The notes under the pieces were generated by a model that did no database searches, was not told where the DNA came from, and was given only the letters and a program-made list of their open reading frames with translations. A program made the position numbers and the translations under genes. From Escherichia coli (GTDB lineage: Bacteria > Pseudomonadota > Gammaproteobacteria > Enterobacterales > Enterobacteriaceae), in assembly GCF_029227855.1 (NCBI RefSeq), contig NZ_CP074356.1: a stretch of DNA of 64,000 nucleotides, one strand, 5' to 3'. This document shows, one piece after another, positions 943-17,572 of this stretch; position 1 is the stretch's first letter, and each line of letters begins with the position of its first letter.

Positions 943-1146
943 ATATGCAATAATTAATTGCACTGCCCCGCCAGCTATAATCGCGGGGCTTCGTTTTTCA
1001 GGGATAACAAAACCCGAAACTTCTTCCATCTGCCAGCAACAATGCCTCTTCCTCTATAGTGTTCTCCGGATCTACAGCATCCTGAAGTAGCGCGATGTAC
1101 TCACGGGCTATCTGCTTCAGAAAGTAAAAAGCAATGTTTTTAACCT

Positions 1147-1180
1147 ATAAAAATGGCGCTGCATTTGCGCCATTTTTATT
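1147..1180. terminator. Bidirectional intrinsic terminator between convergent ykgJ and yagU
   Basis: Hairpin AAATGGCGC-loop-GCGCCATTT flanked by A-run and T-run. Confidence 0.5.
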
Positions 1181-1190
1181 ATTCAATGCA

Positions 1191-1805
1191 TTATCTGTTT
1201 GAGCCTAAAGGGATCTCAGGGTCTGGCTCATGAGTAATTCTGTTTCGTAAATCTCTGCGAATAATTTCAATGGACCAGAACCAGACTAAATGTCCAAAAA
1301 TTTCAGAAACATTCTCATACCACGGGAGATCAAACAGAGGTGGCGTCAGTCCCATGAGAGGGAATGAAATCATATGAACAAAAAGTTGGGCTAAAGCACC
1401 TGCCAGTAAGCCCTGCCAGAGTTTAATTTTTGGAAATACTTCAGCGACCACACAATAACCGACAGCAAACACTATCGAAAAGATAATGTGCGTAACACCA
1501 ACCCAGTTAAAGACATGCCCGGCAAAGGTATAAACAGCCGCATTGGGATCTGTCAGCCCCAACCAGTCTCGAAGAAAAATATACGGAGGATTGAGAAAAT
1601 TACGGGAGCAATCAATTTGCCCAGCAGCCCTGATTAATGATTCCGGGCCACACGCTGCATTAAACATATCCACCGGGCTACGTGGCGGCAATGGAACTTC
1701 AGCCCCCCACTTCACAAATGCGGAAACAACGCCAGCAATCAGCCCAATGAATGCAGCAAGACCATAACGTCTGCGGTTCGGTGGAGTTTGTTCAAATATA
1801 TTCAT
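1191..1805 (-). CDS. yagU: Inner membrane protein YagU (DUF1440 family)
   Basis: 204 aa hydrophobic protein; conserved position next to paoA. Confidence 0.75.
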
Positions 1806-2210
1806 ATCTACCCTGCTTGTACCATTATGTTATACACCTCTTCAGGAGTATTCATAAAATAAGACAAATGTAAAGAACTGTATTGTTTTGTATAATGCAA
1901 TGGTGACTAATCGCCAATGAATATAAGCACCATCATTTCTCCCTATTTTTATATTAAAAGTGACAACGATTTACAGGGTGATGCTGAGCTGACAATCACA
2001 GGTTTCCTTATCGGTTTTTGCATCGCACAACTAAAGCAATAAACTAGCTCCCGTCATCGGCGAATATGAATTAATTAGCCGGGCTCATAGCTGCATTCGC
2101 GTTTTAAGAATAATCCTCCTGCTCTCACCGACTATGCTTAACGTTTAAAAAAGCATCAGCACTCTCGCAACGCACTCTTATTTTCCCCTTTAGAATACCG
2201 GAGGCCTGGT

Positions 2211-2900
2211 ATGAGCAACCAAGGCGAATACCCCGAAGATAATCGGGTTGGGAAGCACGAGCCGCACGATTTTAGTTTGACCCGTCGCGATCTGATTAAA
2301 GTCAGCGCCGCAACGGCGGCGACCGCCGTGGTTTATCCTCATTCTACGCTTGCGGCAAGCGTTCCGGCAGCTACACCCGCGCCAGAGATAATGCCCCTGA
2401 CACTTAAGGTGAACGGCAAAACCGAGCAGTTGGACGTTGATACCCGAACCACGCTACTGGACGCTTTGCGTGAAAATCTGCATCTGATCGGTACCAAGAA
2501 AGGTTGCGATCACGGACAGTGCGGAGCCTGTACCGTGCTGGTCAATGGTCGAAGGCTTAATGCCTGCCTGACGCTTGCAGTCATGCATCAGGGGGCCGAG
2601 ATCACCACCATTGAAGGCCTGGGTTCACCAGACCATCTTCATCCTATGCAGGCGGCCTTTATCAGACATGATGGCTTCCAGTGCGGCTACTGCACCTCCG
2701 GGCAAATTTGCTCATCAGTAGCGGTGCTAAAAGAGATTCAGGACGGCATTCCCAGTCACGTCACGGTCGATTTGGTTTCCCCTCCAGAAAGAACTGCCGA
2801 TGAGATCCGTGAACGTATGAGCGGCAACATCTGTCGCTGTGGTGCATACGCTAACATCCTTGCCGCCATTGAAGACGCTGCGGGGGAGATAAAATCATGA
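2211..2900 (+). CDS. paoA: Periplasmic aldehyde oxidoreductase, 2Fe-2S ferredoxin subunit PaoA
   Basis: 229 aa; twin-arginine signal LTRRDLIK; two 2Fe-2S Cys clusters ([16 protein letters not shown]...CRCG). Confidence 0.9.
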
Positions 2901-3853
2901 AGGCGTTTACCTATGAACGTGTGAACACCCCTGCCGAGGCGGCACTTAGTGCTCAGCGCGTACCCGGCGCAAAATTTATCGCGGGCGGGACCAATCTGCT
3001 GGACCTGATGAAGCTGGAAATTGAAACGCCCACCCACCTTATCGATGTGAACGGGCTCGGGCTCGATAAGATTGAAGTGACCGACGCGGGTGGGCTGCGC
3101 ATCGGCGCACTGGTACGGAACACCGACCTGGCGGCTCACGAGCGCGTGCGTCGTGATTATGCGGTACTCTCCCGCGCCCTGCTCGCTGGCGCGTCTGGTC
3201 AGTTACGTAATCAGGCAACCACCGCAGGTAATCTGCTCCAGCGCACGCGCTGCCCCTATTTTTACGACACCAATCAGCCCTGCAATAAGCGCCTGCCCGG
3301 GAGCGGCTGCGCGGCACTTGAAGGCTTTAGCCGTCAGCACGCGGTGGTAGGCGTAAGCGAAGCCTGCATTGCCACCCATCCGAGCGATATGGCGGTCGCA
3401 ATGCGGTTGCTGGATGCGGTAGTGGAAACCATCACGCCGGAGGGAAAGACTCGCAGTATCACACTGGCTGATTTTTATCACCCTCCGGGAAAAACGCCGC
3501 ACATTGAAACCGCCCTGCTTCCCGGTGAGCTTATCGTTGCGGTGGCATTACCTCCGCCGCTCGGCGGAAAACATATCTACCGCAAGGTGCGCGATCGCGC
3601 CTCCTACGCCTTTGCCCTGGTATCGGTCGCGGCGATTATTCAGCCTGACGGCAGCGGGCGCGTCGCGCTGGGCGGAGTAGCACATAAGCCCTGGCGCATT
3701 GAGGCTGCGGATGCTCAGCTATCCCAGGGGGCGCAGGCCGTGTATGACGCGCTGTTCGCCAGCGCCCATCCCACCGCTGAAAACACCTTTAAACTCCTGT
3801 TGGCGAAGCGAACGCTTGCCTCCGTACTGGCTGAAGCGAGGGCACTGGCATGA
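2897..3853 (+). CDS. paoB: Periplasmic aldehyde oxidoreductase, FAD-binding subunit PaoB
   Basis: 318 aa; FAD-binding fold motif [11 protein letters not shown]; 4-nt overlap with paoA. Confidence 0.9.
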
Positions 3854-6048
3854 AATTTGATAAACCCGCAGGGGAAAACCCGATCGATCAGCTGAAGGTT
3901 GTCGGTCGTCCCCATGACCGCATCGACGGACCGCTGAAAACTACCGGCACGGCACGCTACGCCTACGAATGGCATGAAGAAGCCCCCAACGCCGCCTATG
4001 GTTATATCGTCAGTTCCGCCATTGCCAAAGGACGCCTCACCGCCCTTGATACGGACGCCGCGCAAAAAGCGCCGGGCGTACTGGCTGTCATTACCGCCAG
4101 TAACGCTGGGGCACTCGGCAAAGGCGACAAAAACACCGCCAGGCTGTTAGGCGGCCCCACTATTGAGCACTATCATCAGGCCATTGCGCTGGTAGTGGCT
4201 GAGACCTTCGAACAGGCGCGAGCGGCGGCCTCGCTGGTGCAGGCGCACTATCGCCGTAATAAAGGAGCTTACTCCCTGGCGGACGAGAAACAGGCCGTCA
4301 GTCAGCCGCCGGAAGACACGCCCGATAAAAATGTTGGTGACTTTGACGGGGCTTTCACCTCCGCTGCGGTAAAGATTGATGCTACCTACACGACCCCGGA
4401 CCAGAGCCATATGGCGATGGAGCCGCATGCCTCGATGGCCGTCTGGGATGGGAATAAGCTTACCCTCTGGACCTCAAATCAGATGATTGACTGGTGCCGC
4501 ACCGATCTGGCAAAAACGCTGAAAGTGCCCGTGGAGAATGTGCGTATTATCTCCCCGTATATCGGCGGAGGGTTTGGCGGCAAGCTGTTCCTGAGAAGCG
4601 ATGCGCTGCTGGCGGCCCTCGCCGCCCGTGCGGTGAAACGTCCGGTTAAAGTGATGCTCCCCCGCCCCACTATTCCCAATAACACCACGCACCGCCCCGC
4701 CACCCTTCAGCACCTGCGTATCGGTGCCGACCAGAGCGGGAAAATCACCGCTATCTCACATGAAAGCTGGTCCGGAAACCTGCCCGGCGGCACGCCGGAA
4801 ACGGCGGTACAGCAAAGCGAATTACTCTACGCAGGGGCAAACCGTCATACAGGCCTGCGGCTCGCCACGCTTGATTTGCCGGAAGGGAACGCCATGCGTG
4901 CGCCCGGCGAAGCCCCCGGTCTGATGGCGCTCGAAATCGCGATCGATGAACTGGCGGAAAAAGCGGGCATCGATCCCGTCGAGTTTCGCATCCTGAATGA
5001 CACTCAGGTTGACCCCGCCGATCCGACGCGCCGCTTCTCTCGCCGTCAGCTTATCGAGTGCTTGCGCACCGGAGCGGATAAATTTGGCTGGAAGCAGCGC
5101 AACGCCACACCCGGACAGGTGCGCGACGGGGAGTGGCTAGTCGGCCACGGCGTCGCAGCGGGCTTTCGCAATAATCTGCTGGAAAAATCGGGTGCGCGGG
5201 TTCATCTCGAACAAAACAGCACCGTTACCGTGGAAACGGACATGACCGATATTGGCACTGGCAGCTACACCATTCTGGCCCAGACGGCAGCGGAAATGCT
5301 TGGCGTACCGCTGGAGCAGGTTGCGGTTCACCTCGGCGATTCCAGTTTCCCGGTTTCTGCGGGGTCTGGTGGACAATGGGGCGCGAATACCTCCACCTCC
5401 GGCGTTTACGCCGCCTGTGTGAAGCTTCGCGAAATGATTGCCTCGGCAGTCGGGTTTGATCCTGAGCAGTCGCAGTTTGCCGACGGCAAGATTACCAACG
5501 GTACCCGAAGCGCCACGCTACGTGAGGCCACCGCAGGCGGTAGACTGACAGCGGAAGAGAGCATTGAATTCGGAACACTGAGCAAGGAGTACCAGCAATC
5601 GACCTTTGCCGGGCATTTTGTGGAGGTCAGCGTGCATAGCGCGACGGGAGAAGTTCGGGTCCGACGTATGCTCGCCGTGTGCGCAGCGGGGCGCATTCTG
5701 AATCCGAAAACCGCACGCAGCCAGGTCATTGGCGCAATGACTATGGGCATGGGCGCGGCACTGATGGAGGAGCTGGCGGTAGATGACCGTTTGGGCTACT
5801 TCGTTAATCACGATATGGCGGGGTATGAGGTGCCGATTCATGCGGATATCCCAAAACAGGAGGTGATTTTCCTGGATGATACCGACCCCATCTCCTCCCC
5901 GATGAAGGCCAAAGGTGTCGGTGAGCTGGGCCTGTGCGGCGTGAGCGCGGCTATCGCCAACGCGGTGTATAACGCCACCGGTATTCGGGTACGGGATTAT
6001 CCCATCACTCTGGATAAGCTGCTCGATAAACTGCCGGATGTGGTTTAA
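3850..6048 (+). CDS. paoC: Periplasmic aldehyde oxidoreductase, molybdopterin-binding subunit PaoC
   Basis: 732 aa xanthine dehydrogenase-family Mo subunit; coupled to paoB. Confidence 0.9.
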
Positions 6049-6057
6049 GGAGGAACA

Positions 6058-7014
6058 ATGTCATACTCGCTTTTTGACAAAGACGAGCACTGGCATAAGC
6101 CAGAGCAGGCGTTTCTCACCGATGACCACCGGACCATTCTGCGCTTCGCCGTAGAGGCGCTAATGTCCGGTAAAGGAGCGGTGCTGGTGACGCTGGTGGA
6201 GATACGCGGCGGCGCGGCGCGCCCGCTCGGGGCGCAGATGGTGGTGCGCGAAGATGGTCGTTACTGCGGTTTTGTCTCTGGCGGCTGCGTGGAGGCCGCT
6301 GCCGCTTTTGAAGCGCTGGAGATGATGGGCTCAGGCCGCGATCGCGAAATTCGCTATGGTGAAGGTTCGCCGTGGTTTGACATCGTTCTGCCCTGCGGCG
6401 GTGGGATCACGCTGACGCTCCATAAACTACGCTCGGCACAGCCTCTGCTCGCCGTGCTGAACCGCCTGGAACAGAGAAAACCGGCGGGTCTGCGCTACGA
6501 TCCGCAAGCTCAATCGCTGGTGTGCCTGCCCACGCAAACCCGGACGGGCTGGAATCTCAATGGCTTTGAGGTGGGGTTCAGACCATGCGTCAGTCTGATG
6601 ATTTACGGACGTTCTCTTGAGGCGCAGGCAACCGCGAGTCTTGCAGCAGCCACAGGCTATGACAGCCATATCTTCGATCTTTTTCCGGCCTCAGCCAGCG
6701 CTCAGATCGATACCGATACGGCGGTCATTTTGCTGTGCCATGATCTCAACCGGGAGCTGCCAGTGTTGCAGGCCGCGCGAGAGGCAAAACCCTTTTATCT
6801 CGGCGCATTGGGCAGCTATCGAACCCACACTTTACGTCTGCAAAAGCTCCACGAGCTGGGATGGTCCAGGGAGGAGACAGCGCAAATCCGGGCACCCGTC
6901 GGGATATTCCCCAAAGCCCGGGATGCGCATACTCTGGCACTCTCCGTGCTGGCAGAAGTCGCCTCTGTACGTCTCCATCAGGAGGAGGATTCATGCCTGC
7001 CCCCGTCGTCCTGA
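6058..7014 (+). CDS. paoD: Molybdenum cofactor insertion chaperone PaoD (XdhC family)
   Basis: 318 aa XdhC/CoxI-like protein directly after paoC. Confidence 0.85.
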   Translation: MSYSLFDKDEHWHKPEQAFLTDDHRTILRFAVEALMSGKGAVLVTLVEIRGGAARPLGAQMVVREDGRYCGFVSGGCVEAAAAFEALEMMGSGRDREIRYGEGSPWFDIVLPCGGGITLTLHKLRSAQPLLAVLNRLEQRKPAGLRYDPQAQSLVCLPTQTRTGWNLNGFEVGFRPCVSLMIYGRSLEAQATASLAAATGYDSHIFDLFPASASAQIDTDTAVILLCHDLNRELPVLQAAREAKPFYLGALGSYRTHTLRLQKLHELGWSREETAQIRAPVGIFPKARDAHTLALSVLAEVASVRLHQEEDSCLPPSS

Positions 7015-7094
7015 TCCTTGCGGCCGGGCGTGGAGAGCGCTTTCTCGCCTCCGGGGGAAATACCCATAAATTAAGAGAAAAATCTGCAGTAGCC
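7005..7094 (+). pseudogene. 5' remnant of a MobA/MocA-like nucleotidyltransferase gene (about 28 codons), coupled to the paoD stop
   Basis: ATG overlapping the paoD end encodes MPAPVVLILAAGRGERFLASGGNTHKL (ILAAGxGxR NTP-transferase motif); similarity then stops and the frame runs into the 3' end of the opposite-strand transporter gene. Confidence 0.4.
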
Positions 7095-7193
7095 GTTTTA
7101 GAAAATCACCTAAATCGTTTAAAAGAGCACCCAACCCATAGTGGGCGCTCATCGCCTTGTGTAACTTATTCAGCAACGCGCGCCCTCGCCGGA

Positions 7194-8387
7194 CTAAAGC
7201 GCACCGGCCTTCTGGCGTGCGGTAACAAAGGTCAGTACGCCAGCGCAAAGGAGCAGCACGCTACTCATAGCAAACGTGCTCTGCCAGCCAAGGCGGTCAA
7301 ATACGATGCCTCCTGCTGTTGATCCAAGGGCGATGGAGAGCTGAATCACCGCGACCATGAGCCCGCCTCCGGCTTCGGCGTTGTCAGGCAACGTACGCGC
7401 AATCCATGTCCACCATCCGGTTGGCGCGGCGGTGGCCAGCATGCCCCAGAGTCCTAACAGCAGCGAGACCGTCCAGACGTGATGCCCGGTCAGCATCAGA
7501 CCGATAGCAATGACGGCCATCAGTCCGGGTATGGCCATCAGCGTGGGGTAGAATTTTCTGTTGAGAAATGCCGAAACAACCAGCGTGCCAATAAAACCGG
7601 CCACGCCGATAATCAGCAAAATCAACGACAAGCCTAAGGAATTAACCCGTGTCACCGACTCCAGAAACGGGCGCACATAGGTGAATAGTGCAAACTGCCC
7701 CATGAAAAACAGGCAGCAGGCTATCATGCCGACCACAACCATGCGGCGGCTAAATAAGCGGAATACCGCGCCACATGAAGTGTGGCTTTTATTCGCATCC
7801 ATGCTTGGCAGGCTGATGCACTGCCAGATAAAGGCGACAACCGCGATGGGCACCAGGCACAAGAAAGCGCCTCGCCATCCGACCGTAGCCCCCAGATAGC
7901 TTCCCAGCGGTGCGGCCACGACCGTCGCCAGCGCATTACCGGCGTTGAAAATTGCCAGCGCACGCGTGACCTGATGCTGCGGCACCAGACGAATCGCCGT
8001 TGCCGCTGACATCGACCAGAATCCGCCAATAGCCACACCAATCATCGCACGACCGACCATATACATCAGATAACTGGAAGCCAGCGCAATAATAAGCCCC
8101 GATACGGCCATCAGAACCGTCATCCCCAGCAGCAGGAACTTACGATTCATCTTTCCAGCTAGCGTTGAAAGCGTCAGGCTGGTCAGAACCGCCAGCGCGC
8201 CGGAGATAGCAATCCCCTGCCCTGCCAGCCCCTCCGTCACGCCTAAATCGCGGGTAATCGGCGTGAGCAGGCTGACGGGCATAAATTCAGAAGCAATCAG
8301 CACAAACACGCACAGGGTCATGGCAAAAATACCGCCCCAGTATGCGCGCTGATGATGAGGTGATAGTGTTTGGCTTAGTGTCGACAT
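7194..8387 (-). CDS. Major facilitator superfamily transporter (12 predicted TM helices)
   Basis: 397 aa, hydrophobic throughout with MFS-like glycine-rich loops. Confidence 0.7.
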   Translation of the reverse strand: MSTLSQTLSPHHQRAYWGGIFAMTLCVFVLIASEFMPVSLLTPITRDLGVTEGLAGQGIAISGALAVLTSLTLSTLAGKMNRKFLLLGMTVLMAVSGLIIALASSYLMYMVGRAMIGVAIGGFWSMSAATAIRLVPQHQVTRALAIFNAGNALATVVAAPLGSYLGATVGWRGAFLCLVPIAVVAFIWQCISLPSMDANKSHTSCGAVFRLFSRRMVVVGMIACCLFFMGQFALFTYVRPFLESVTRVNSLGLSLILLIIGVAGFIGTLVVSAFLNRKFYPTLMAIPGLMAVIAIGLMLTGHHVWTVSLLLGLWGMLATAAPTGWWTWIARTLPDNAEAGGGLMVAVIQLSIALGSTAGGIVFDRLGWQSTFAMSSVLLLCAGVLTFVTARQKAGAL

Positions 8388-8462
8388 AGTGAAATTTCAC
8401 AAAGATCAGGATAAAAGCCACCAGCCTATGGCCGGTGGCTTTGCATCAATTCAGGAGAGGTT

Positions 8463-9620
8463 TTATTTCAGTTTGGTCTGGAAAAATTGTTCGAACTTCG
8501 CGAAAGGTATTTTTCCGGCCACGTTATCGTACAGGTCCACGTGATTTGCCCCTGGTACCACCACCAACTCTTTGTCTTTACTGCCAACCGCCTTGTAAGC
8601 ATCTTCAGCAAAATAGCGTGAATGTGCTTTCTCACCGGTCACAATCAGCGTCGGAATGGTGATTTCACTGGCGTAGCTCAACAGCGGCATATTCATAAAT
8701 GACAGCGGCATCGTTGCCGTCCACGCCCCGGTAGAGTTAACGGAACGTTCGTGGAAGCCGCGCGGCATGCGATAGTAGTCAAAGAACTCTTTCAGTACCG
8801 GATGAGGATTTGCCGGCAGCGTTTCTGGCAGAATGCGCTCGCCCGCACTGACCTTGCCGTTGCTGTCGACATTAATATCATGACCACCGTGAGCGAACGT
8901 TCCGCTCTGCGCATCCTTCCAGCGCTGTTCATTCAGATATTGCAGAACAGCACGACGGTCGGCGGTAGAATAACGGTCTTTGCCATCCCCCACACCATGG
9001 CCCATCGCCCGGCTCATGTCATACATCACGCTGGTAGCTACCGCTTTAACGCGGGTATCCATCGCCGCGTCGTTCAGCGCCATGCCGCCCCAGCCACAAA
9101 TACCGAGCAGCCCGATACGGTTGCGATCTACCTCTTTTTGCAGCCCTAAGAAATCCACTGCCGCGCTGAAATCTTCAGTGTTGATATCCGGTGAGGCGAC
9201 GTTTCGCGGATAGCCGCCGCTTTCCCCGGTGTAAGAAGGATCGAACGCCAGGGTAACAAACCCTCGTTCCGCCAGCGTCTGCGCATACAGGCCGCTGGAT
9301 TGCTCTTTCACCGCGCCAAATGACCCACTGACCGCAATCGCCGCCAGCTTGCGATCGCCACGGTCTTTAGGCAGGTAAAGATCGCCCACTAAGGTGATGC
9401 CATATCGGTTCGGGAACGAGACTTTACGGTGATCGACTTTCTGGCTCTCGGCGAACGTTTTATCCCATTTATCTGTCATGGACACAGGGGCATTAGGATT
9501 GGTTGAATCAGCATAACTCATTGTCGTGACTCCACTTAATGATGCGAAAAGCAGCATGGTCGGCATCGCGGTTTTTAGCGTGCGGGTGAAGGCTTTCATA
9601 AAAATCCCCATAAAAAACAA
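8463..9620 (-). CDS. Secreted alpha/beta-fold hydrolase; alternative start at 9599 (MKAF...)
   Basis: 385 aa; N-terminal signal peptide; nucleophile-elbow-like motif GICGWGG; upstream of the MFS gene on the same strand. Confidence 0.55.
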   Translation of the reverse strand: MFFMGIFMKAFTRTLKTAMPTMLLFASLSGVTTMSYADSTNPNAPVSMTDKWDKTFAESQKVDHRKVSFPNRYGITLVGDLYLPKDRGDRKLAAIAVSGSFGAVKEQSSGLYAQTLAERGFVTLAFDPSYTGESGGYPRNVASPDINTEDFSAAVDFLGLQKEVDRNRIGLLGICGWGGMALNDAAMDTRVKAVATSVMYDMSRAMGHGVGDGKDRYSTADRRAVLQYLNEQRWKDAQSGTFAHGGHDINVDSNGKVSAGERILPETLPANPHPVLKEFFDYYRMPRGFHERSVNSTGAWTATMPLSFMNMPLLSYASEITIPTLIVTGEKAHSRYFAEDAYKAVGSKDKELVVVPGANHVDLYDNVAGKIPFAKFEQFFQTKLK

Positions 9621-9785
9621 CAGAGAGATACAGGTTTCCGACGGACAACGCTGCGGTGCTTTACTTTGATGGGGTCATTATAGTGAGCAGAATTAGTGCT
9701 GATTAGGGGGCGATTAATGCTAAGATTAATACCATATTGTTATAAATTAATGTGGAGATTGCCGGCATGAAGGGGGGATGTTTCA

Positions 9786-10670
9786 ATGGCGAAAAGGGAG
9801 AACTACAACGAGCTGTACCTGTTTATGCAGGTGGTGCGGGAAGGCAGCTTTACCGCAGCGGCTCAGCGGCTGGGTCTTGCTCAGTCAGGAGTCAGCCGTT
9901 CTGTTCGCGAGCTTGAAGAAAGGCTGGGTGTCCAGCTGCTAGTGCGCACCACGCGTAAACTGTCGCTGACACAAGCAGGCGAGCAGCTCTACCAGAAGAC
10001 GGCATCTGGATTTGAAATGTTAGATCTTGGGCTTGCCACGCTGGCGCATTATCGAGAGACGCCCTCCGGCACGGTGCGTATCAATGCCAGCCAGCACGCG
10101 ATTGATAAATGCCTGCTGCCAAAGCTGGCGGTATTTAAACAGAGATATCCTGATATCCGGCTTGAACTGATAAATGAGAGCCGGTTCGTCGATATCATCG
10201 AGGAAAGATTCGATGCAGGTGTCCGCCTGGGGCCTGAAGTCGGCCAGGGTATGGTCGCGGTACGCATCACGCCCGATATGGAGATGGCAATTGTGGGGAC
10301 TCCGGAACATTTTCGTCGCTATGGTTTTCCGCAAACCCCGGCGGATTTAAAGGCGCATCCCTGTATCGCCTATCAGTTTGCCGACGGCAGCGTATACCAG
10401 TGGGAACTCAATCAGGATGATAAAAAAATCACTCATCGCCCTGAAGGGCAATGGGCCCTATCCGACAGCTATATGGAAGCAGAAGCCGCCCGGCTGGGCC
10501 TCGGATTGGCCTATGTTCCTGTTGAACTGGTCGCGGATGATTTAGAACACGGTAAGCTTATCAGGGTGTTGCAGCGTTACAGCCTGCGAATGGAGGGATT
10601 GTTTCTCTATTACCCTCATCGCAACGTCTCCCCCGCCCTGCGGATGGTCATTGATACATTGAAAATCTGA
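9786..10670 (+). CDS. LysR-family transcriptional regulator
   Basis: 294 aa; N-terminal HTH (FTAAAQRLGLAQSGVSRSVRELEERLGVQLL); divergent from the hydrolase-MFS pair. Confidence 0.85.
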   Translation: MAKRENYNELYLFMQVVREGSFTAAAQRLGLAQSGVSRSVRELEERLGVQLLVRTTRKLSLTQAGEQLYQKTASGFEMLDLGLATLAHYRETPSGTVRINASQHAIDKCLLPKLAVFKQRYPDIRLELINESRFVDIIEERFDAGVRLGPEVGQGMVAVRITPDMEMAIVGTPEHFRRYGFPQTPADLKAHPCIAYQFADGSVYQWELNQDDKKITHRPEGQWALSDSYMEAEAARLGLGLAYVPVELVADDLEHGKLIRVLQRYSLRMEGLFLYYPHRNVSPALRMVIDTLKI

Positions 10671-11103
10671 ACGTTAACAACGACCGACTCTTCACTGTGC
10701 AAAATTGTGTCAGGTAGTCCCTCTGCGTTCAATTCCAGGGTCTGCTTTGAGCGAGAAAGAGGGGACTATCCAGCAATGGAGATCACCCAAAAGAAAAAAC
10801 CACCTGGCTCCCTCGACAACCTTCATCCGGGCATTTAGCCTCAATCAACATTTTTATATCTGTCAGGTTACTTCATTATGAAAACTGATCATCATCGTTG
10901 TTTTTGTTGCAATAGTAGAATACGCGTATTTATTCCTCCATCTCTATTAATAACGGCAATAAACTGTTCACTTCACTGATATTTAAAATATGTATCCTTT
11001 TCAAGCTGTTCAGCGGCGTAAGAAAAAGTATTAATTATGAATTCGATGATTTAACCATATCTGTCTGATTGGTAATCATCCGTGATTAATGCTGGTCTAT
11101 TGA

Positions 11104-12024
11104 TTACGCCAGAACCCTCTCTAGCTTATTCACCGCCGCCACATACTTCGCCGGATTTTTATCTTTAAGCACCGCCAGATTGCGTTGCTTCCAGCGAATA
11201 GCCGGAAGATGCTGAATTTCAGGATAGCGATACCGCGACCAGTCAGGGCTGTTTTGCTTAAAACTGAGCAAGAACTCGCGATCCAGATCCGTAAGATGTG
11301 ACTTCAACGCCTGCGGCAGCAAAGTCGTTACTGACAGAAGCGATTCCAGCGACGTTTCCTGTTGCGTCATCCCTGAAAATTCCTGCGCGTACAACGTGGC
11401 GATCCGCTCTGTATCCCAGTTTGGAGCCAGCAACTCGGCGATGGGGCGGGGATGGCCTGCCAGATAACAAAGAAAACCGTCAAAGATCTCCCGCATCAGT
11501 CCCGGTTTCTCCAGCATATTCAGCACATCAAACAGATCGCGCGGGTGCTGACGATCAAGCGCAGCGCAGATTTTACCGCCATAAAGATCCGCCAGCGAGA
11601 CGACACTCATGGTGGTGAAGCCATACTCCATTTCCACACGTTCGCACACAGGCATTTCTGCCGGAGGCAACAACAGCCCGCGCCAGACCGGGCTAACCTC
11701 GATCTTAATCTTTGCATCAGCGGTATTCACAATGATGCGCTTTTCATCCGCTTTATTTTCCTGCCGAATCGCGGTGATCCCCGGTCTGCCGTTCAGCGAT
11801 GCAGTAATCCTCTTCAAAGCGTCGTTGATAGCCGCCAAATCAGTATCGCGATCCGCAAAGCTCTTGTACGCCAGATCAATATCCACCGACAGACGGGGAA
11901 AATCCTGCACAAACAAATTGATTGCGGTGCCGCCTTTCAACGCGAAACAGGACTCCTTCGCCACATACGGCAGAGCGGCCATCAACAGTTTGACCTGCCG
12001 GGCATAGCTATCACGCAGATCCAT
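11104..12024 (-). CDS. abiEii: AbiEii-type nucleotidyltransferase toxin (DUF1814 family)
   Basis: 306 aa; NTase motif GGTAINLF...RLSVDIDL; 14-nt overlap with upstream partner. Confidence 0.7.
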   Translation of the reverse strand: MDLRDSYARQVKLLMAALPYVAKESCFALKGGTAINLFVQDFPRLSVDIDLAYKSFADRDTDLAAINDALKRITASLNGRPGITAIRQENKADEKRIIVNTADAKIKIEVSPVWRGLLLPPAEMPVCERVEMEYGFTTMSVVSLADLYGGKICAALDRQHPRDLFDVLNMLEKPGLMREIFDGFLCYLAGHPRPIAELLAPNWDTERIATLYAQEFSGMTQQETSLESLLSVTTLLPQALKSHLTDLDREFLLSFKQNSPDWSRYRYPEIQHLPAIRWKQRNLAVLKDKNPAKYVAAVNKLERVLA

Positions 12025-12814
12025 CTTCGACTCCTTCCGGTTTAAATGCGCGTGGAACAGTAATTTGATAATCCGGCTCCAGCCAGCCGCCGGGTATGAT
12101 TTGCCGCTTTCCCGTACCTGTTTCTATACCGCTTTGATCAATATACTGAAAATAAGGGTGTCCATTACGCCGGGCAAGGTAAAGCATCACCCGGTTGGTT
12201 TTAACCGAATGGCTGGCGCGAAGCAGTGCCTGCAATTTGCGTGGGCTGAGAAGATTCAACCCCTGAAACAGAGCATCGGCATGTTCGAACGAGATTAACG
12301 AAGGAACGCCGCAGGCGATCTCATACGCGGCCAGTTCCGGAACACTGCCTGCTAACTGGCGGTCGCCAATTTTCAGTTCCGTAGTAAATGGCGTTACATC
12401 AGCGGTAAGGCCTGACGTATACAGCGTGACAAACGTTGCGGATTGTTCAAAGGCAGAAAACCATCCCGGCAGTTTGACGTAAGCCGGAAGCGCGAGCCAG
12501 ACCTGCGGCTTACCCTGTTCGGTATAGTGCGCATGACCCTGAAGCGCAAGGCTGGTTAGCCCCGCCACCCGAACAGGCTTTTCCCACTGCGATTGCAGGC
12601 AGTAAACCGCATCCACCCAATCCGGTTCACGACCCGTCCGGCAGTATACGCCGTGAGCGATCCGCCTGAGCCAGCCATTCTTCACATAGAGATAAGAGAG
12701 CTTACGATCTATGCCGTTGCGGGTAAGCCATGACTGGAGCAGCACCTGGCCGGGTAGCGTGTGCTGCATCAGCCAGTTTAGATAGTTTGGCAACTGTCGC
12801 CTCTGAATAGACAT
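12011..12814 (-). CDS. abiEi: AbiEi-type antitoxin / transcriptional regulator
   Basis: 267 aa; sits immediately upstream of and overlapping the NTase gene, the usual AbiE arrangement. Confidence 0.6.
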   Translation of the reverse strand: MSIQRRQLPNYLNWLMQHTLPGQVLLQSWLTRNGIDRKLSYLYVKNGWLRRIAHGVYCRTGREPDWVDAVYCLQSQWEKPVRVAGLTSLALQGHAHYTEQGKPQVWLALPAYVKLPGWFSAFEQSATFVTLYTSGLTADVTPFTTELKIGDRQLAGSVPELAAYEIACGVPSLISFEHADALFQGLNLLSPRKLQALLRASHSVKTNRVMLYLARRNGHPYFQYIDQSGIETGTGKRQIIPGGWLEPDYQITVPRAFKPEGVEDGSA

Positions 12815-13108: not shown

Positions 13109-14884
13109 ATGACATATCAGGCAATTTTCACTGGCTGGGATGATCTGACGATTGAAGACCTTCTGGTCGCTTACCGGAAAGCAAAAGCCGATAGCTTCTT
13201 TGAGAATACATTTCCTGTTGCTATCAAATTTGCCGAGTATGAGCAGGAATTACTTGAAAACCTGCAAAAACTCTTAGATCTTTTGCAGAGCGAAGATGGA
13301 TTCAGTAGCAATAAGAAGTTGATTGGCAAATTTCGTTTGTTACCGAAAAAATTAACCACAAAGAAAAAACATGAATCCCAAAATGGACACGTCCACTTTT
13401 CTAATCCTAAACGAGCAGCCGACCATTTATTTAATAATTTTGATCTGATACCAGAGTTTCGTATTATTGGTGACTTCCCGGTTGATAGTCACATTATCTC
13501 TGCACTATGGATTAACATGGTCGGGCATAAATTTGATGCCAGCTTAGATAACTGTTGCTATGGCGCGCGGCTAAAGCGTATTCGTAATGATGAATTATTT
13601 AGCGATGAGCAGGATAATCCATTCCATATCAGTGCCGTGGGTTCTTTTAGCCCCTACTTCCAGCCCTACCAAAAATGGCGTGGTGATGGCTTAAAAGCTA
13701 TACGTGACGAGTTGGAAAAAGATCGTGACATTATCGCCGCCTCACTGGATTTAAAAAGTTACTATCATTTTATTGATCCACTGGCTATAACCTCTGATGA
13801 TCTCTATAACACACTAAACATAAAACTGACTGAGGATGAAAAAGCGTTTACTGCACAGTTAGCAGTATTCTTAAAGCACTGGTCTGACGGCGCAGCGGCA
13901 TTTGGAAAGAAAATAGCGTACAAAACACCTGTTATTAATGGTGGTCTGGTCATTGGATTAACAGCCAGTCGGATCATTTCAAATATATTGCTACACCATT
14001 GGGATAAATTAGTCATTGAAAAACTATCACCAATTCACTACGGTCGTTATGTCGATGATATGTTCCTTGTAATACGCGATACAGGGACAATTACTAATAA
14101 TCACGAATTTATGTTATTGCTGCAAGATAGGCTTGGCAATGATTGCGTTTATTTGAAAAACGAGCAAAAACAAATATGGCAAATACAGCAGGGCGAGCAT
14201 TTCCAGGGTAAGACCACCATCCAGTTACAATCCGATAAGCAAAAACTTTTCGTGCTTCAAGGGAGGGCTGGAATAGACCTGCTCGACAGTATCGAAAAGG
14301 AGATCTACGAGCTTTCTAGTGAACACCGCTTGATGCCTTCACCGGATCAACTGGAACACTCCACCGCAGCTAAAGTCCTTTCCGCTGCCGGTAGTGTAGG
14401 TGAAAATGCCGATACTCTGCGCCGTGCGGATGGATTAACCATTCGTCGTTTGGGCTGGTCACTGCAATTACGCTACGTTGAAACACTGGCACGAGATCTG
14501 CCTCCAAGTGAATGGAAAGAACAGCGGGAAGAGTTTTATCAGTTTGCCTACAACCATATTCTTAGGGCTGATAATCTATTTGCACATTTTAGTTATCTGC
14601 CAAGGCTGCTTGGCTTTGCTATCAGTATGAATGAATGGCAGCACGCGGAAAAAATTGTACTTAAAGCTTACGAATCCATCAACCTGTTGGCATCGGTGAT
14701 TACTTCAGGTAAGGAAGTGAATATAAATGGTTGCAAAACTCGAGCAGTAAATGATCTTTGGCGCTGTATAAAAGGCACATTAAGCTGGCTATTTGTTGAT
14801 GCAGCGACACGATATTACAGTCCTGACAGATTATTTCTTGATAAACGTTCAAAGAAAGAAGAGTGCCTTGCGGATACATTTTAA
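13109..14884 (+). CDS. Reverse transcriptase (UG/Abi-type defence RT); likely the N-terminal part of an RT-nitrilase fusion interrupted at a T4 tract
   Basis: 591 aa; RT motifs in order: FRLLPKK (motif 1), LDLKSYYHFID (A), GGLVIGLTASRIISNIL (B'), YGRYVDDMFLV (C, YxDD); stop codon TAA begins inside TTTT at 14879-14882. Confidence 0.8.
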   Translation: MTYQAIFTGWDDLTIEDLLVAYRKAKADSFFENTFPVAIKFAEYEQELLENLQKLLDLLQSEDGFSSNKKLIGKFRLLPKKLTTKKKHESQNGHVHFSNPKRAADHLFNNFDLIPEFRIIGDFPVDSHIISALWINMVGHKFDASLDNCCYGARLKRIRNDELFSDEQDNPFHISAVGSFSPYFQPYQKWRGDGLKAIRDELEKDRDIIAASLDLKSYYHFIDPLAITSDDLYNTLNIKLTEDEKAFTAQLAVFLKHWSDGAAAFGKKIAYKTPVINGGLVIGLTASRIISNILLHHWDKLVIEKLSPIHYGRYVDDMFLVIRDTGTITNNHEFMLLLQDRLGNDCVYLKNEQKQIWQIQQGEHFQGKTTIQLQSDKQKLFVLQGRAGIDLLDSIEKEIYELSSEHRLMPSPDQLEHSTAAKVLSAAGSVGENADTLRRADGLTIRRLGWSLQLRYVETLARDLPPSEWKEQREEFYQFAYNHILRADNLFAHFSYLPRLLGFAISMNEWQHAEKIVLKAYESINLLASVITSGKEVNINGCKTRAVNDLWRCIKGTLSWLFVDAATRYYSPDRLFLDKRSKKEECLADTF

Positions 14885-16316
14885 TCATATTTCACAAAGT
14901 CTGACGAATCTAAAGGATTTACTGGATCTTCGCTTTGATTCAGCAGATTTTTATTTAAAAGCGCCATTGGTAGCTCGAGCTGATTTAGCAAAGGAACCTT
15001 ATAAACAGATCGTAAAGAGTCAGTCGGCAGAAAAACTTGTTAATCAGCGTGATAGTAAAAAAGAAGTTAAAATACTGAAATTAATGAGCGACTCATCGCT
15101 TATTGATATTGACGTTATTAAGCTATTTTTGAAATCAACCAAGAATACCCGACTGGAAAAAGTGGCTAAAGGAAATCGTAAGAACGAAAGTTACCTACCT
15201 TACATTTTCCCTACACGTCCTTTAACACCCGCTGAAATATCAGAACTGGCCCCCGAATGTGTTGGATTACCCTCCACATCCGACAAAAAACCAGATGAGA
15301 GACCGTCCACCATTTGGGCAAAATATACTCAAGCATTACGCGGAGTATGGATCAAACCGACGTTGCTAGCATCGGAGCAGGACTCAGATGAAGCGACAAA
15401 AAAAGCTCGGCCTAAGAAATTCATTCATATTGGCACAGACAGGAAACATAAAGTTGTCGTTGCGCTAACCAGCATTAAAACAGAGGAGGACGACTGGGCT
15501 AAAATGGCCTGCAATAAATCTAACTTGTCCCGTTCAAGGTACCAGCGGATTTCTGAACTGGTTAATGCAACATTGAAACTATCTCCTAAACCTGATTATG
15601 TTTTATTCCCTGAGCTTTCAATCCCGTTACGCTGGGTTAACAGTATTGCTGATCGTTTGAGTTCGGCGGGTATCAGTCTAATTGCGGGAACAGAATACCG
15701 CCACTTAGACGATAATCAACTGAAGAGTGAGGCCGTACTTGTCCTTTCAGATAACAGACTCGGCTATCCAGCGAGTGTCAAAATATGGCAACCCAAGCTG
15801 GAACCCGCCGTAGGTGAAGATGAGGCATTATTTTCAACTTATGGTAAGTCTTGGGATTCGACACTTAATGTTAAACAACGTAAGCCGGTATATATTCATC
15901 ACGGCGTCAATTTTGGCGTTATGATTTGCTCTGAACTCCAGAATAGTAAAGCGAGGATCCGTTTTCAGGGCGCACTCGATGCATTAATGGTATTGAGCTG
16001 GAATAAAGATCTAGATACGTTTGCATCGTTGATTGAATCAGCAGCGCTGGATATTCATGCCTATACTATTTTAGTGAATAACCGAAAATACGGCGATAGT
16101 CGCGTACGTTCCCCGGCAAAAGAACCCTTTATGCGTGATATTGCTCGTGTGAAGGGCGGTGATAATGACTTTGTGGTCGCTGCAACGCTGGATATCGACT
16201 CGTTAAGGGCATTTCAGAGCAGGGCAAAACGCTGGCCTAAAGGCGGCGATAAATTCAAACCGTTACCTGAAGGATTCCAGTTGGCAAAGAACCGCAAAAA
16301 GCTACCGCCAAAATAA
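14793..16316 (+). CDS. Nitrilase / CN-hydrolase domain protein; probable C-terminal part of the RT-nitrilase protein (frame +1 relative to the RT ORF)
   Basis: 507 aa as called (TTG start, no convincing RBS); nitrilase-like triad context YVLFPELSIP (Glu), VKIWQPK (Lys), GVMICSELQN (Cys); overlaps RT ORF by 92 nt. Confidence 0.75.
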   Translation: MLMQRHDITVLTDYFLINVQRKKSALRIHFNHISQSLTNLKDLLDLRFDSADFYLKAPLVARADLAKEPYKQIVKSQSAEKLVNQRDSKKEVKILKLMSDSSLIDIDVIKLFLKSTKNTRLEKVAKGNRKNESYLPYIFPTRPLTPAEISELAPECVGLPSTSDKKPDERPSTIWAKYTQALRGVWIKPTLLASEQDSDEATKKARPKKFIHIGTDRKHKVVVALTSIKTEEDDWAKMACNKSNLSRSRYQRISELVNATLKLSPKPDYVLFPELSIPLRWVNSIADRLSSAGISLIAGTEYRHLDDNQLKSEAVLVLSDNRLGYPASVKIWQPKLEPAVGEDEALFSTYGKSWDSTLNVKQRKPVYIHHGVNFGVMICSELQNSKARIRFQGALDALMVLSWNKDLDTFASLIESAALDIHAYTILVNNRKYGDSRVRSPAKEPFMRDIARVKGGDNDFVVAATLDIDSLRAFQSRAKRWPKGGDKFKPLPEGFQLAKNRKKLPPK

Positions 16317-17270: not shown

Positions 17271-17311
17271 TAGCAAAGGCAAGCAGGCTGGTTCAGTCCA
17301 GTGTTTCTCTT

Positions 17312-17410
17312 CTTGCATTTTCAGAAATGGGAGGCTGGGAGTCTATCGAAATGGTTCGTCGATATGCTCACCTCGCGCCTAATCACCTTACCGAACACGC
17401 ACGGCAAATA
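17312..17410 (+). pseudogene. C-terminal remnant of a tyrosine integrase gene
   Basis: Peptide [30 protein letters not shown] matches the conserved C-terminal region around the catalytic Tyr (RYAHL) of phage integrases; no upstream integrase sequence present. Confidence 0.55.
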
Positions 17411-17496
17411 GACTCAGTCCTGAACCCATCGGTCCCAAATTTGTCCCAGTCAAAAAATAAGGAAGGTACTAATGATGTGTAACTTATTGATTTTAA

Positions 17497-17572
17497 TGGT
17501 GCCGATAAGAGGAGTCGAACCTCCGACCTTCGCATTACGAATGCGCTGCTCTACCAACTGAGCTATATCGGC
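17497..17572 (-). tRNA. thrW: tRNA-Thr, anticodon CGU
   Basis: 76-nt cloverleaf GCCGATATAGCTCAGTTGGTAGAGCAGCGCATTCGTAATGCGAAGGTCGGAGGTTCGACTCCTCTTATCGGCACCA with encoded CCA; anticodon loop CATTCGTAATG. Confidence 0.9.

What the first reader, a model, noticed from the sequence alone, without database searches (positions are those of the whole stretch)
7194..10670. LysR-regulated secreted hydrolase and MFS transporter module beside the island
A divergent LysR gene with a signal-peptide alpha/beta hydrolase and an MFS transporter suggests a small substrate-utilisation or detoxification unit. It lies between the pao operon and the AbiE locus, separated from AbiE by a 430-bp AT-rich spacer.
Basis: seen in the sequence. 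Interest (0 to 1): 0.25.

Follow-up and report, generated by a model that had tools for sequence, protein, structure and literature searches.

The report
O-island 9 OvrB–hydrolase–transporter cassette
The three genes are real, but they are a copy of an already published E. coli O157:H7 accessory segment (O-island 9) whose regulator, OvrB, is known to switch on virulence genes, while the enzyme and transporter beside it are still of unknown function.

Summary
Window 7194-10670 carries three intact genes: an MFS transporter (7194-8387, -), an alpha/beta hydrolase with a signal peptide (8463-9599, -) and a divergent LysR regulator (9786-10670, +). A 433-bp spacer of 39% GC separates them from AbiEii.

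They are not core K-12 genes, but they are not new either. They are 97-99% identical, in the same order and place, to z0348/z0347/z0346 of O-island 9 in EHEC O157:H7 EDL933. z0346 is the published regulator OvrB, which binds the LEE1 promoter and activates ler. Deleting z0347 or z0348 had no virulence phenotype, and their function is untested.

This analysis adds the following:
- The trio is a discrete 3.6-kb cassette. It recurs with different flanks in several enterobacterial genera, and in rearranged form as P. aeruginosa PA2220/opdE/PA2218.
- A conserved LysR box and a perfect -10 lie in the divergent promoter region.
- The hydrolase belongs to the PA2218/YcjY family. It has cysteine in the nucleophile position and is probably exported.
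- 912 of 5,426 complete E. coli genomes (17%) carry the module.
- K-12 yagP is the remnant of a 6.1-kb deletion of this island.

The most likely function is an inducible periplasmic ester, lactone or thioester detoxification and efflux unit. The substrate is unknown. Interest is low.

The parts
7070..11112 (.). Part of O-island 9 retained in this window. It lies between the K-12 deletion endpoint (K-12 homology stops at 7069) and the point where homology to O157:H7 stops (11112) and the AbiE/DRT island begins.
   Evidence: blastn of the window against K-12-type and O157 loci; K-12 against O157; OI-9 described as 6132 bp, z0342-z0348 (PMC6768210)
7177..10755 (.). Limits of the three-gene cassette as shared with Kluyvera genomosp. 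1 (91.6% nucleotide identity, different flanks).
7194..8387 (-). MFS transporter, 397 aa, ortholog of z0348. It resembles the DHA1 exporters NepI, YdeA and Cmx and is 62% identical to P. aeruginosa PA2219 (OpdE). RefSeq annotates a shorter 375-aa form.
8414..8442 (-). A 13-bp-stem hairpin followed by UUUUAU, lying between the hydrolase stop and the MFS start. It looks like a terminator or attenuator.
   Evidence: Inverted repeat I7; minimum free energy -28.6 kcal/mol, z -5.25; hairpins of unrelated sequence occupy the same position in the Klebsiella, Yersinia and E. cloacae copies, and a near-identical one in Kluyvera
8463..9599 (-). Alpha/beta hydrolase precursor, 378 aa, ortholog of z0347, in the PA2218/YcjY family. 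Cys168 (codon 9096-9098) sits in the nucleophile position and is the only cysteine. His353 is at 8541-8543.
9510..9599 (-). Predicted Sec signal peptide (residues 1-30, cleavage after SYA). The RefSeq 352-aa annotation, which starts at 9521, omits most of it.
   Evidence: Start codon and Shine-Dalgarno sequence conserved in 10 loci; signal-type N-termini across the family; RefSeq coordinates
9677..9682 (-). Perfect -10 hexamer TATAAT of the candidate hydrolase promoter; the matching -35 is poor.
   Evidence: Five of six positions invariant and the sixth nearly invariant in the 10-locus alignment; sequence check
9686..9700 (.). Conserved dyad AGCA-N7-TGCT just upstream of the -10; a candidate LysR activation site.
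   Evidence: the role is inferred
9729..9743 (.). Candidate LysR recognition box ATA-N9-TAT (T-N11-A core), about 66 bp upstream of the inferred hydrolase transcription start and overlapping the likely ovrB promoter.
   Evidence: Invariant or nearly invariant columns in the 10-locus alignment; sequence check; binding not tested
9786..10670 (+). LysR-type regulator, 294 aa, ortholog of z0346 (OvrB), 289/294 identical to the EDL933 protein.
   Evidence: PMC6768210
10882..10950 (+). ykgR pseudogene fragment inside the AT-rich spacer. It lacks the first 11 codons; homology to the real ykgR locus runs to 10998.

Best explanation
This is the paoD-proximal half of the accessory segment published as O-island 9, namely the ovrB (z0346), z0347 and z0348 orthologs. 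It most likely works as one self-contained inducible unit.

- Regulation (inferred): the LysR protein OvrB binds the ATA-N9-TAT box in the 186-bp divergent region. On binding a small-molecule co-inducer it activates a promoter that has a perfect -10 and a poor -35.
- Enzyme (export and catalysis inferred): that promoter drives an exported hydrolase with cysteine in the nucleophile position. The enzyme would cleave an ester, lactone or thioester bond in the periplasm.
- Transporter (inferred): a strong hairpin after the hydrolase gene probably lowers read-through into the MFS gene. Its 12-helix, DHA1-type product most likely exports the same compound, or its product, from the cytoplasm.
- Net effect (inferred): tolerance to a still unidentified xenobiotic or plant- or host-derived compound.
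- Known function: in strains that carry LEE, the same regulator has been shown to activate LEE1/ler. I read that as a secondary, recruited target.
For: Identity with OI-9:
- Same gene order next to paoD as in EDL933, and 97-99% protein identity.
- The published gene list for z0342-z0348 matches.

The three genes form a functional unit:
- LysR<->hydrolase-MFS recurs with unrelated flanks in Klebsiella michiganensis, Yersinia frederiksenii, Dickeya, Kluyvera and Enterobacter cloacae.
- Diverged versions occur in Vogesella, Luteimonas, several Alphaproteobacteria and P. aeruginosa: LysR 36-43%, MFS 43-62%, hydrolase 54-61% identity.
- All three genes are under purifying selection.

Regulation:
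- A block at 9677-9747 is conserved across 10 loci. It holds the LysR box, a dyad and TATAAT.

Enzyme:
- E 1.1e-123 to PDB 2HDW and 6.8e-43 to YcjY.
- The AlphaFold model has pLDDT 84.7. Its next structural neighbours are thioesterases (DcsB), GrgF, a PETase, monoglyceride lipases, and feruloyl, chlorogenic and acetyl esterases.
- The nucleophile position is Cys in 14 of 17 family members and His353 is nearly invariant.
- Cys168 is the only cysteine in the protein.

Export:
- Sec, lipoprotein and TAT-type N-termini occur across the family.
- The ATG at 9599 is conserved.

Transporter direction:
- The best NCBIfam matches are the exporters NepI, the PRK03545 'sugar transporter' model, and Cmx/CmrA.

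Detoxification flavour:
- Recurrent neighbours of the hydrolase in 78 loci are a hexapeptide acetyltransferase, CMD/cupin proteins, aldo-keto reductases and FMN reductases.
Against: - No substrate, co-inducer or OvrB binding to its own divergent region has ever been tested.
- The only experimental data concern LEE. Deletions of z0347 and z0348 had no phenotype in adherence or LEE assays, although no other phenotype was examined.
- The acidic member of the catalytic triad could not be assigned from the alignment.
- The MFS direction is inferred from relatives that score far below their family cut-offs (NepI 293 bits against 584).
- The signal peptide was judged by eye and by conservation, not with a dedicated predictor.
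- The promoter scan did not report the promoter I propose, because its -35 is too weak for the scan's rule.
- The hairpin could be a full terminator. In that case the MFS gene would need a promoter that I did not find.
Confidence: 0.55

Rival explanations
1. Scavenging or utilisation unit. The periplasmic hydrolase releases a usable moiety from an esterified nutrient, the MFS protein imports it, and OvrB senses it.
For: An exported hydrolase next to a transporter is a common scavenging layout. Structural neighbours include feruloyl, chlorogenic and acetyl esterases that act on plant material. In E. coli the cassette sits beside the pao operon.
Against: The nearest characterised MFS relatives are exporters. 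No catabolic enzyme travels with the cassette. The adjacency to pao is not kept in other genera. Recurrent neighbours elsewhere are detoxification-type enzymes.
Confidence: 0.2
2. The biologically relevant role is virulence regulation only. OvrB is chiefly a regulator of distant genes such as LEE1, and z0347/z0348 are passengers that it does not control.
For: OvrB binds the LEE1 promoter in vitro and in vivo. Its deletion lowers adherence, LEE expression and mouse colonisation, whereas deletions of z0347 and z0348 do nothing in those assays (PMC6768210).
Against: The same trio, with a conserved LysR box, occurs in genera and E. coli lineages without LEE. All three genes are under purifying selection. 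Divergent LysR genes normally control their neighbour (established knowledge of the family).
Confidence: 0.15
3. The hydrolase is a quorum-quenching acyl-homoserine lactonase of the dienelactone-hydrolase type, like UilS.
For: A partial match to the NCBIfam UilS lactonase model, E 1.1e-18, covering residues 80-235. UilS is a dienelactone-hydrolase-like AHL lactonase (PMC11633161).
Against: The score is 67.9 bits against a cut-off of 400, and only half of the model is matched. UilS is cytoplasmic, whereas this protein is probably exported. The closest structures have unknown function.
Confidence: 0.05
4. The protein is not a hydrolase but a polymerase for short-chain poly-hydroxybutyrate, as once proposed for its paralog YcjY on the basis of a GXCXG motif.
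For: YcjY was listed as a candidate cPHB polymerase because of its GXCXG motif (review PMC3709699). The window protein is a YcjY paralog with G-I-C-G-W at that site.
Against: This was a prediction only and was never confirmed. All characterised structural neighbours are hydrolases. No acyl-CoA source exists in the periplasm (general knowledge).
Confidence: 0.03

Closest known systems
O-island 9 (OI-9) of EHEC O157:H7 EDL933, genes z0346 (ovrB), z0347 and z0348 (Liu et al. 2019, PMC6768210; review PMC8565820)
   Same: Same chromosomal place (next to paoD), order and orientation. LysR is 289/294 identical, hydrolase 375/378 and MFS 387/397. The ykgR fragment follows in both.
   Different: The window keeps only the paoD-proximal 4 kb. 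The z0342-z0344 part (second LysR, SDR oxidoreductase, hypothetical protein) is replaced at 11112 by an AbiE plus reverse-transcriptase defence island that reaches thrW. I did not test whether this strain carries LEE.
Pseudomonas aeruginosa PA2220 (LysR) / PA2219 opdE (MFS) / PA2218 (hydrolase, PDB 2HDW)
   Same: The same three components sit side by side with a divergent LysR. MFS is 62% identical, LysR 41% and hydrolase 58%. The hydrolase has a solved structure but no assigned function.
   Different: The gene order is LysR<->MFS-hydrolase instead of LysR<->hydrolase-MFS. opdE is known only through an effect of its disruption on imipenem resistance (Huang et al. 1992, as cited in PMC12690498). 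The locus tags PA2219 and PA2220 were assigned to the sequenced locus from position, size and papers, not from an annotated PAO1 record.
E. coli YcjY (PDB 5XB6)
   Same: Paralog with the same fold and Cys in the nucleophile position. E 6.8e-43; 33% identity in the structural alignment; TM 0.91 normalised to the target.
   Different: YcjY is 306 aa and has no signal peptide. It lacks the lid insertion around residues 238-262. Its function is also unknown.
Dienelactone hydrolase family (Pfam DLH, PF01738)
   Same: Alpha/beta fold with a cysteine nucleophile and a histidine. The Pfam DLH match is at threshold: 22.0 bits against 21.
   Different: The match covers only residues 92-195. The protein is larger, has a cap domain and is exported. 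The best Pfam hit is PETase-like (36.3 bits), not DLH.
NepI / YdeA (SotB) / Cmx exporters of the DHA1 group of the major facilitator superfamily
   Same: Full-length alignment to these NCBIfam models. About 12 hydrophobic segments by a crude hydropathy scan.
   Different: Scores are far below each model's cut-off (NepI 293 against 584). It is a separate subfamily whose substrate is unknown.

Membership tests
O-island 9 ovrB-z0347-z0348 (orthology) | Same gene order and orientation next to paoD as in EDL933 | tested here: met
   Annotated EDL933 and O157 loci compared with the window; collinear homology over window 1013-11112 at 97.0%
O-island 9 ovrB-z0347-z0348 (orthology) | Near-identical proteins | tested here: met
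   98%, 99% and 97% identity
O-island 9 ovrB-z0347-z0348 (orthology) | Complete island z0342-z0348 (6.1 kb) | tested here: not met
   Homology to O157 stops at 11112; the SDR gene and the second LysR gene are absent from the window
O-island 9 ovrB-z0347-z0348 (orthology) | OvrB binds the LEE1 promoter and activates ler | not testable with these tools
   Shown experimentally for O157, O55:H7 and O145:H28 only
LysR-type transcriptional regulators | N-terminal HTH_1 domain plus C-terminal LysR substrate-binding domain, about 300 aa | tested here: met
   Pfam E 1.4e-23 and 4.7e-35; 294 aa
LysR-type transcriptional regulators | Divergent target gene with a T-N11-A box near -65 | tested here: met
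   ATA-N9-TAT at 9729-9743, conserved in 10 loci and about 66 bp upstream of the inferred start; actual binding not tested
Alpha/beta hydrolases, PA2218/YcjY family | Alpha/beta hydrolase fold | tested here: met
   AlphaFold model with pLDDT 84.7; Foldseek E 6.7e-46 to 2HDW and 7.1e-30 to 5XB6
Alpha/beta hydrolases, PA2218/YcjY family | Nucleophile after strand 5 and catalytic histidine near the C-terminus | tested here: met
   Cys168 in G-I-C-G-W (Cys in 14 of 17 members); His353 nearly invariant
Alpha/beta hydrolases, PA2218/YcjY family | Acidic third member of the catalytic triad | tested here: inconclusive
   No single conserved acidic residue after strand 7.
UilS-type AHL lactonase (NCBIfam NF047920) | Score above the curated cut-off of 400 bits over the full model | tested here: not met
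   67.9 bits; model positions 14-160 of 285 only
Major facilitator superfamily | MFS_1 domain over the whole protein | tested here: met
   133.5 bits against a cut-off of 33.4; residues 24-355
NepI purine ribonucleoside efflux pump (NCBIfam NF007578) | Score above the curated cut-off of 584 bits | tested here: not met
   292.7 bits
Anti-phage defence systems (PADLOC) | Any of the three proteins matches a defence model | tested here: not met
   No match at E <= 1e-5 for the hydrolase, MFS or LysR proteins, whereas the neighbouring AbiE and RT genes match strongly

The most novel reading that the evidence does not exclude
OvrB's original and still active target is its own neighbour operon (z0347-z0348). 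Its co-inducer would be the substrate or product of the periplasmic cysteine hydrolase. If so, the chemical that this cassette detoxifies is also the unknown cue through which EHEC and EPEC tune LEE expression via OvrB. The same logic could explain why disrupting the homologous P. aeruginosa transporter OpdE changes imipenem resistance.
Probability: 0.3. Interest if true: 0.45.

Novelty: already known. Interest (0 to 1): 0.18.

Why it matters
As a finding it is ordinary: three intact accessory genes already catalogued as part of O-island 9, one of them (OvrB) characterised.

Its residual value is as a pointer.
- The published work treated OvrB as a horizontally acquired LEE regulator. It did not ask what OvrB senses or whether it controls the two genes next to it.
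- The cassette conservation, the conserved LysR box and the link to P. aeruginosa PA2218-PA2220 suggest a concrete experiment: find the ligand through the hydrolase's substrate.
- The comparison also corrects the evolutionary reading. K-12's yagP is the stump of z0342, so the 'island' is ancestral backbone that about half of sequenced E. coli lost in one 6.1-kb deletion. It was not gained twice by pathogens.
- RefSeq start sites for the hydrolase and the transporter appear too short. For the hydrolase this hides the signal peptide.

Tried and rejected
- Rfam scan of 6900-11300 at E <= 1: no hits.
- Consensus RNA fold of the conserved 5' leader (9590-9676) from 8 loci: -0.85 kcal/mol and no covariation, so it is not a structured leader.
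- Search for repeats flanking the cassette that might mark a mobile element: only short chance-level matches and no terminal repeats.
- The sigma-70 scan did not report the proposed promoter. It found fewer promoter-like sites than shuffles give (2 found against a mean of 3.8).
- PADLOC: the three proteins are not defence genes.
- Literature searches for the RefSeq protein accessions found nothing. Searches for YcjY and PA2218 gave no functional data.
- UilS lactonase and NepI equivalog membership were rejected on score.
- A functional link to the adjacent pao operon was considered. It was not adopted because the adjacency is specific to E. coli.
- The cyclophilin-like gene (PF18050), which accompanies the hydrolase in 20 of 78 loci, is absent from the E. 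coli cassette, so it gives no lead here.
Full report
**1. Is it there?**

Yes. Window 7194-10670 holds three intact ORFs.

| Gene | Coordinates | Size | Main evidence |
|---|---|---|---|
| MFS transporter | 7194-8387 (-) | 397 aa | Pfam MFS_1, E 1.1e-38 |
| Alpha/beta hydrolase | 8463-9599 (-) | 378 aa from the ATG at 9599 | several weak alpha/beta-hydrolase Pfam hits |
| LysR regulator | 9786-10670 (+) | 294 aa | HTH_1 and LysR_substrate domains |

- paoD ends at 7014.
- AbiEii/AbiEi occupy 11104-12814.
- The spacer 10671-11103 is 433 bp at 38.8% GC, against 54% for the module.

One omission is that the spacer carries a ykgR pseudogene fragment at 10882-10950. It is 91% identical over 117 nt to the real ykgR locus and lacks the first 11 codons.

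**2. What it is**

The segment is present at 97-100% identity in many E. coli chromosomes.

- In O157:H7, including EDL933, the order downstream of paoD is MFS, hydrolase, LysR, ykgR fragment, a hypothetical gene, an SDR oxidoreductase and a second LysR gene.
- This matches the published O-island 9: 6,132 bp, z0342-z0348. There z0346 is the LysR regulator OvrB, z0347 a hydrolase and z0348 an MFS transporter (PMC6768210; review PMC8565820).
- The window's proteins match the EDL933 proteins at 289/294 (LysR), 375/378 (hydrolase) and 387/397 (MFS) residues.

The finding is therefore the ovrB-z0347-z0348 part of OI-9. Published experiments show the following:
- OvrB binds the LEE1 promoter and activates ler.
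- OvrB promotes adherence and mouse colonisation.
- Deleting z0347 or z0348 does not affect those traits.
- Neither OvrB's ligand, nor its effect on its neighbour genes, nor the hydrolase's substrate was examined.

**3. Boundaries and population genetics**

- Homology between the window and O157 runs from 1013 to 11112 at 97.0% and then stops, right at the AbiEii stop codon.
- From there to tRNA-Thr (thrW, 17497-17572) the window carries a small degraded island. It holds AbiEi/AbiEii, a UG5-type reverse transcriptase-nitrilase, and ash and integrase remnants.
- The window therefore keeps only about 4 kb of OI-9.

K-12-type genomes match the window only up to 7069, 55 nt past paoD. They resume inside the second LysR gene of O157. 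K-12's pseudogene yagP is 96.9% identical to the 3' part of that gene. K-12 is thus a 6.13-kb deletion derivative of an OI-9-bearing ancestor, not a strain that never had the island.

Counts among 5,426 complete genomes:

| Arrangement | Genomes |
|---|---|
| At least 80% of window 7000-11100 present | 912 (17%) |
| K-12-type deletion junction | 2,683 (49%) |
| O157-type continuation after the ykgR fragment | 436 |
| Window-type junction to AbiEii | 295 |

Between the window and O157 the three genes differ by dS 0.03-0.09, with dN/dS 0.11-0.15. This is in step with the 97% identity of the flanks and argues for vertical descent within E. coli.

**4. A conserved cassette**

- The same LysR<->hydrolase-MFS trio occurs with unrelated flanks in Klebsiella michiganensis, Yersinia frederiksenii, Dickeya chrysanthemi, Enterobacter cloacae and Kluyvera.
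- Against Kluyvera genomosp. 1, nucleotide homology (91.6%) covers exactly window 7177-10755. This marks the cassette limits.
- No flanking repeats were found.
- Database clusters at 90% identity also contain Citrobacter, Salmonella, Serratia and Enterobacter copies. This suggests occasional transfer between genera.
- Diverged trios occur in Vogesella, Luteimonas, Microvirga, Novosphingobium, Bosea, Brevundimonas and Paracoccus.
- In P. aeruginosa a protein 99% identical to the residues of the PDB 2HDW chain (PA2218) recovered from the HMMER alignment sits next to a 402-aa MFS protein and a divergent LysR gene. The MFS is 62% identical to the window's and the LysR 41%.
- By position and size these are PA2219 (opdE) and PA2220. 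opdE disruption is reported to raise imipenem resistance, and OpdE is an inner-membrane protein.
- Outside the Proteobacteria the hydrolase occurs without the other two genes. It then often lies beside a cyclophilin-like gene, a hexapeptide acetyltransferase, CMD/cupin proteins, aldo-keto reductases or FMN reductases.

**5. The parts**

Hydrolase:
- E 1.1e-123 to 2HDW and 6.8e-43 to E. coli YcjY.
- The AlphaFold model has pLDDT 84.7, and it is low only over residues 1-38.
- After 2HDW and YcjY, the nearest structures are an uncharacterised Chloroflexus alpha/beta hydrolase, the thioesterase DcsB, GrgF, PET46, monoglyceride lipases, and feruloyl, chlorogenate and acetyl esterases.
- The nucleophile position is Cys168 (G-I-C-G-W). 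It is Cys in 14 of 17 aligned family members.
- His353 is nearly invariant. V-K-E-Q 97-100, D181, R183, D355, Y357 and D358 are invariant. The acid of the triad could not be assigned.
- Cys168 is the only cysteine in the protein, so no disulfide can tie it up in the periplasm.
- The N-terminus looks like a Sec signal peptide. Relatives carry Sec, lipobox or twin-arginine N-termini, while short paralogs lack them.
- The ATG at 9599 and its Shine-Dalgarno sequence align in 10 loci. The RefSeq 352-aa model therefore probably starts too late.
- The window allele has Ser93 where most relatives have Pro.

Transporter:
- It aligns full-length with the NepI, PRK03545 ('sugar transporter') and Cmx/CmrA models, but scores far below their cut-offs.
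- The conserved MSTL... N-terminus supports the 397-aa form over RefSeq's 375 aa.

Regulatory region. A block at 9677-9747 is conserved across genera. It contains:
- ATA-N9-TAT at 9729-9743, a T-N11-A LysR box;
- an AGCA-N7-TGCT dyad at 9686-9700;
- a perfect TATAAT at 9677-9682 on the hydrolase strand, with a poor -35.

The box sits about 66 bp upstream of the inferred transcription start. This is the classical LysR layout, and the box overlaps the likely ovrB promoter. Its role is inferred, not shown.

Hairpin:
- A strong hairpin (-28.6 kcal/mol, z -5.25) with a short U tract lies between the hydrolase and MFS genes.
- The Klebsiella, Yersinia and E. cloacae copies have hairpins of unrelated sequence at the same place, and the Kluyvera copy a near-identical one.

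**6. How it most likely works**

My best reading (confidence about 0.55) is an inducible two-step protection unit.
- OvrB senses a small molecule and activates the divergent promoter.
- The exported cysteine hydrolase cleaves an ester, lactone or thioester in the periplasm.
- The DHA1-type pump, expressed at a lower level behind the hairpin, removes the compound or its product from the cytoplasm.
- LEE1 activation in EHEC and EPEC would be a later recruitment of this regulator.

What is shown and what is inferred:
- Shown: gene identities, orthology, cassette conservation, sequence conservation of the regulatory block, fold, and population distribution.
- Inferred: OvrB control of its neighbours, export of the enzyme, chemistry of the enzyme, direction of transport, and a detoxification role.

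Rivals are a scavenging or uptake unit (0.2), OvrB acting only on distant genes (0.15), an AHL lactonase (0.05) and a cPHB polymerase (0.03).

**7. Novelty and score**

The object is already known as part of OI-9, and one of its genes is characterised, so interest is low (0.18). The points that may be new are modest:
- the local LysR architecture;
- the cysteine-nucleophile and exported nature of z0347;
- the correspondence with P. aeruginosa PA2218-PA2220;
- the deletion origin of K-12 yagP, which conflicts with the published idea of two independent acquisitions;
- the probably truncated RefSeq start sites.

Noticed in passing
window 10882-10998: The 'AT-rich spacer' contains a ykgR pseudogene fragment. 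It covers the last 22 codons plus the stop codon and 48 nt of 3' flank, is 91% identical to the real ykgR locus elsewhere in E. coli, and the frame is closed by TGA just upstream. It is present in every OI-9 copy examined.
   Followed up: yes
window 13109-14884 and 14799-16316: The reverse transcriptase and the carbon-nitrogen hydrolase next to AbiE together match one 907-position PADLOC profile, RT_UG5-nitrilase (DRT): positions 9-515 and 502-901. They are two ORFs overlapping by 86 nt. This is either a frameshifted single gene or a split variant.
   Followed up: partly
window 11104-12814: AbiEii (306 aa) and AbiEi (267 aa) are intact and overlap by 14 nt. The AbiEii stop codon lies within a few bases of the point (11112) where homology to O157 OI-9 ends. 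AbiEii-matching sequence at 95.5% identity occurs in many genomes where the match does not extend into the OI-9 part.
   Followed up: partly
K-12-type locus L002:6066-6547 versus O157 locus L003:12199-12679: K-12 pseudogene yagP is the 3' remnant of the second OI-9 LysR gene (z0342). The 6.13-kb deletion junction is shared by 2,683 of 5,426 complete genomes. OI-9 therefore looks ancestral and lost, not gained twice as published.
   Followed up: yes
window 9521 versus 9599, and 8321 versus 8387: The RefSeq models for the hydrolase (352 aa) and the MFS protein (375 aa) start later than the conserved start codons (378 and 397 aa). The hydrolase model loses most of the signal peptide.
   Followed up: yes
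window 9600-9676: Part of the 5' leader of the hydrolase gene (…GCACCGCAGCGTTGTCCGTCGGAAACCTGTATC…) is conserved in 8 of 10 enterobacterial loci. It has no predicted RNA structure, no covariation and no Rfam match. Its role is unexplained.
   Followed up: partly
L004:7200-7280 and L006:7320-7394: In the Klebsiella and Yersinia copies the hydrolase-MFS spacer is longer. It carries a conserved near-palindrome (CGTTATT..ATGAATA.CG) just upstream of the MFS gene, possibly an operator for another regulator. It is absent from the E. coli and Kluyvera copies.
   Followed up: no
L006:8601-9104, L008:7234-7743 and 18 further loci: A cyclophilin-like gene (Pfam PF18050, about 165 aa, often with its own signal peptide) lies directly beside the hydrolase in 20 of 78 loci across phyla. 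It is missing from the E. coli cassette.
   Followed up: partly
window 17279-17572: tRNA-Thr (CGT; thrW) lies at 17497-17572, next to proA, with an integrase remnant beside it. This is the integration hot spot that holds CP4-6 in K-12. A 70-bp match to K-12's partial tRNA copy lies at 17479-17548.
   Followed up: partly
window 9321-9323: The window's hydrolase allele has Ser93 in the motif G-P-F-G-A-V-K-E-Q, where O157 and 14 of 17 relatives have Pro. The effect is unknown.
   Followed up: no
protein search: PA2218-type hydrolases at 81-90% identity to the P. aeruginosa protein are reported from very distant taxa (Clostridiaceae, Anaerolineaceae, Sphingomonadales, Rhodocyclus). This suggests wide horizontal spread or contaminated assemblies.
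   Followed up: no
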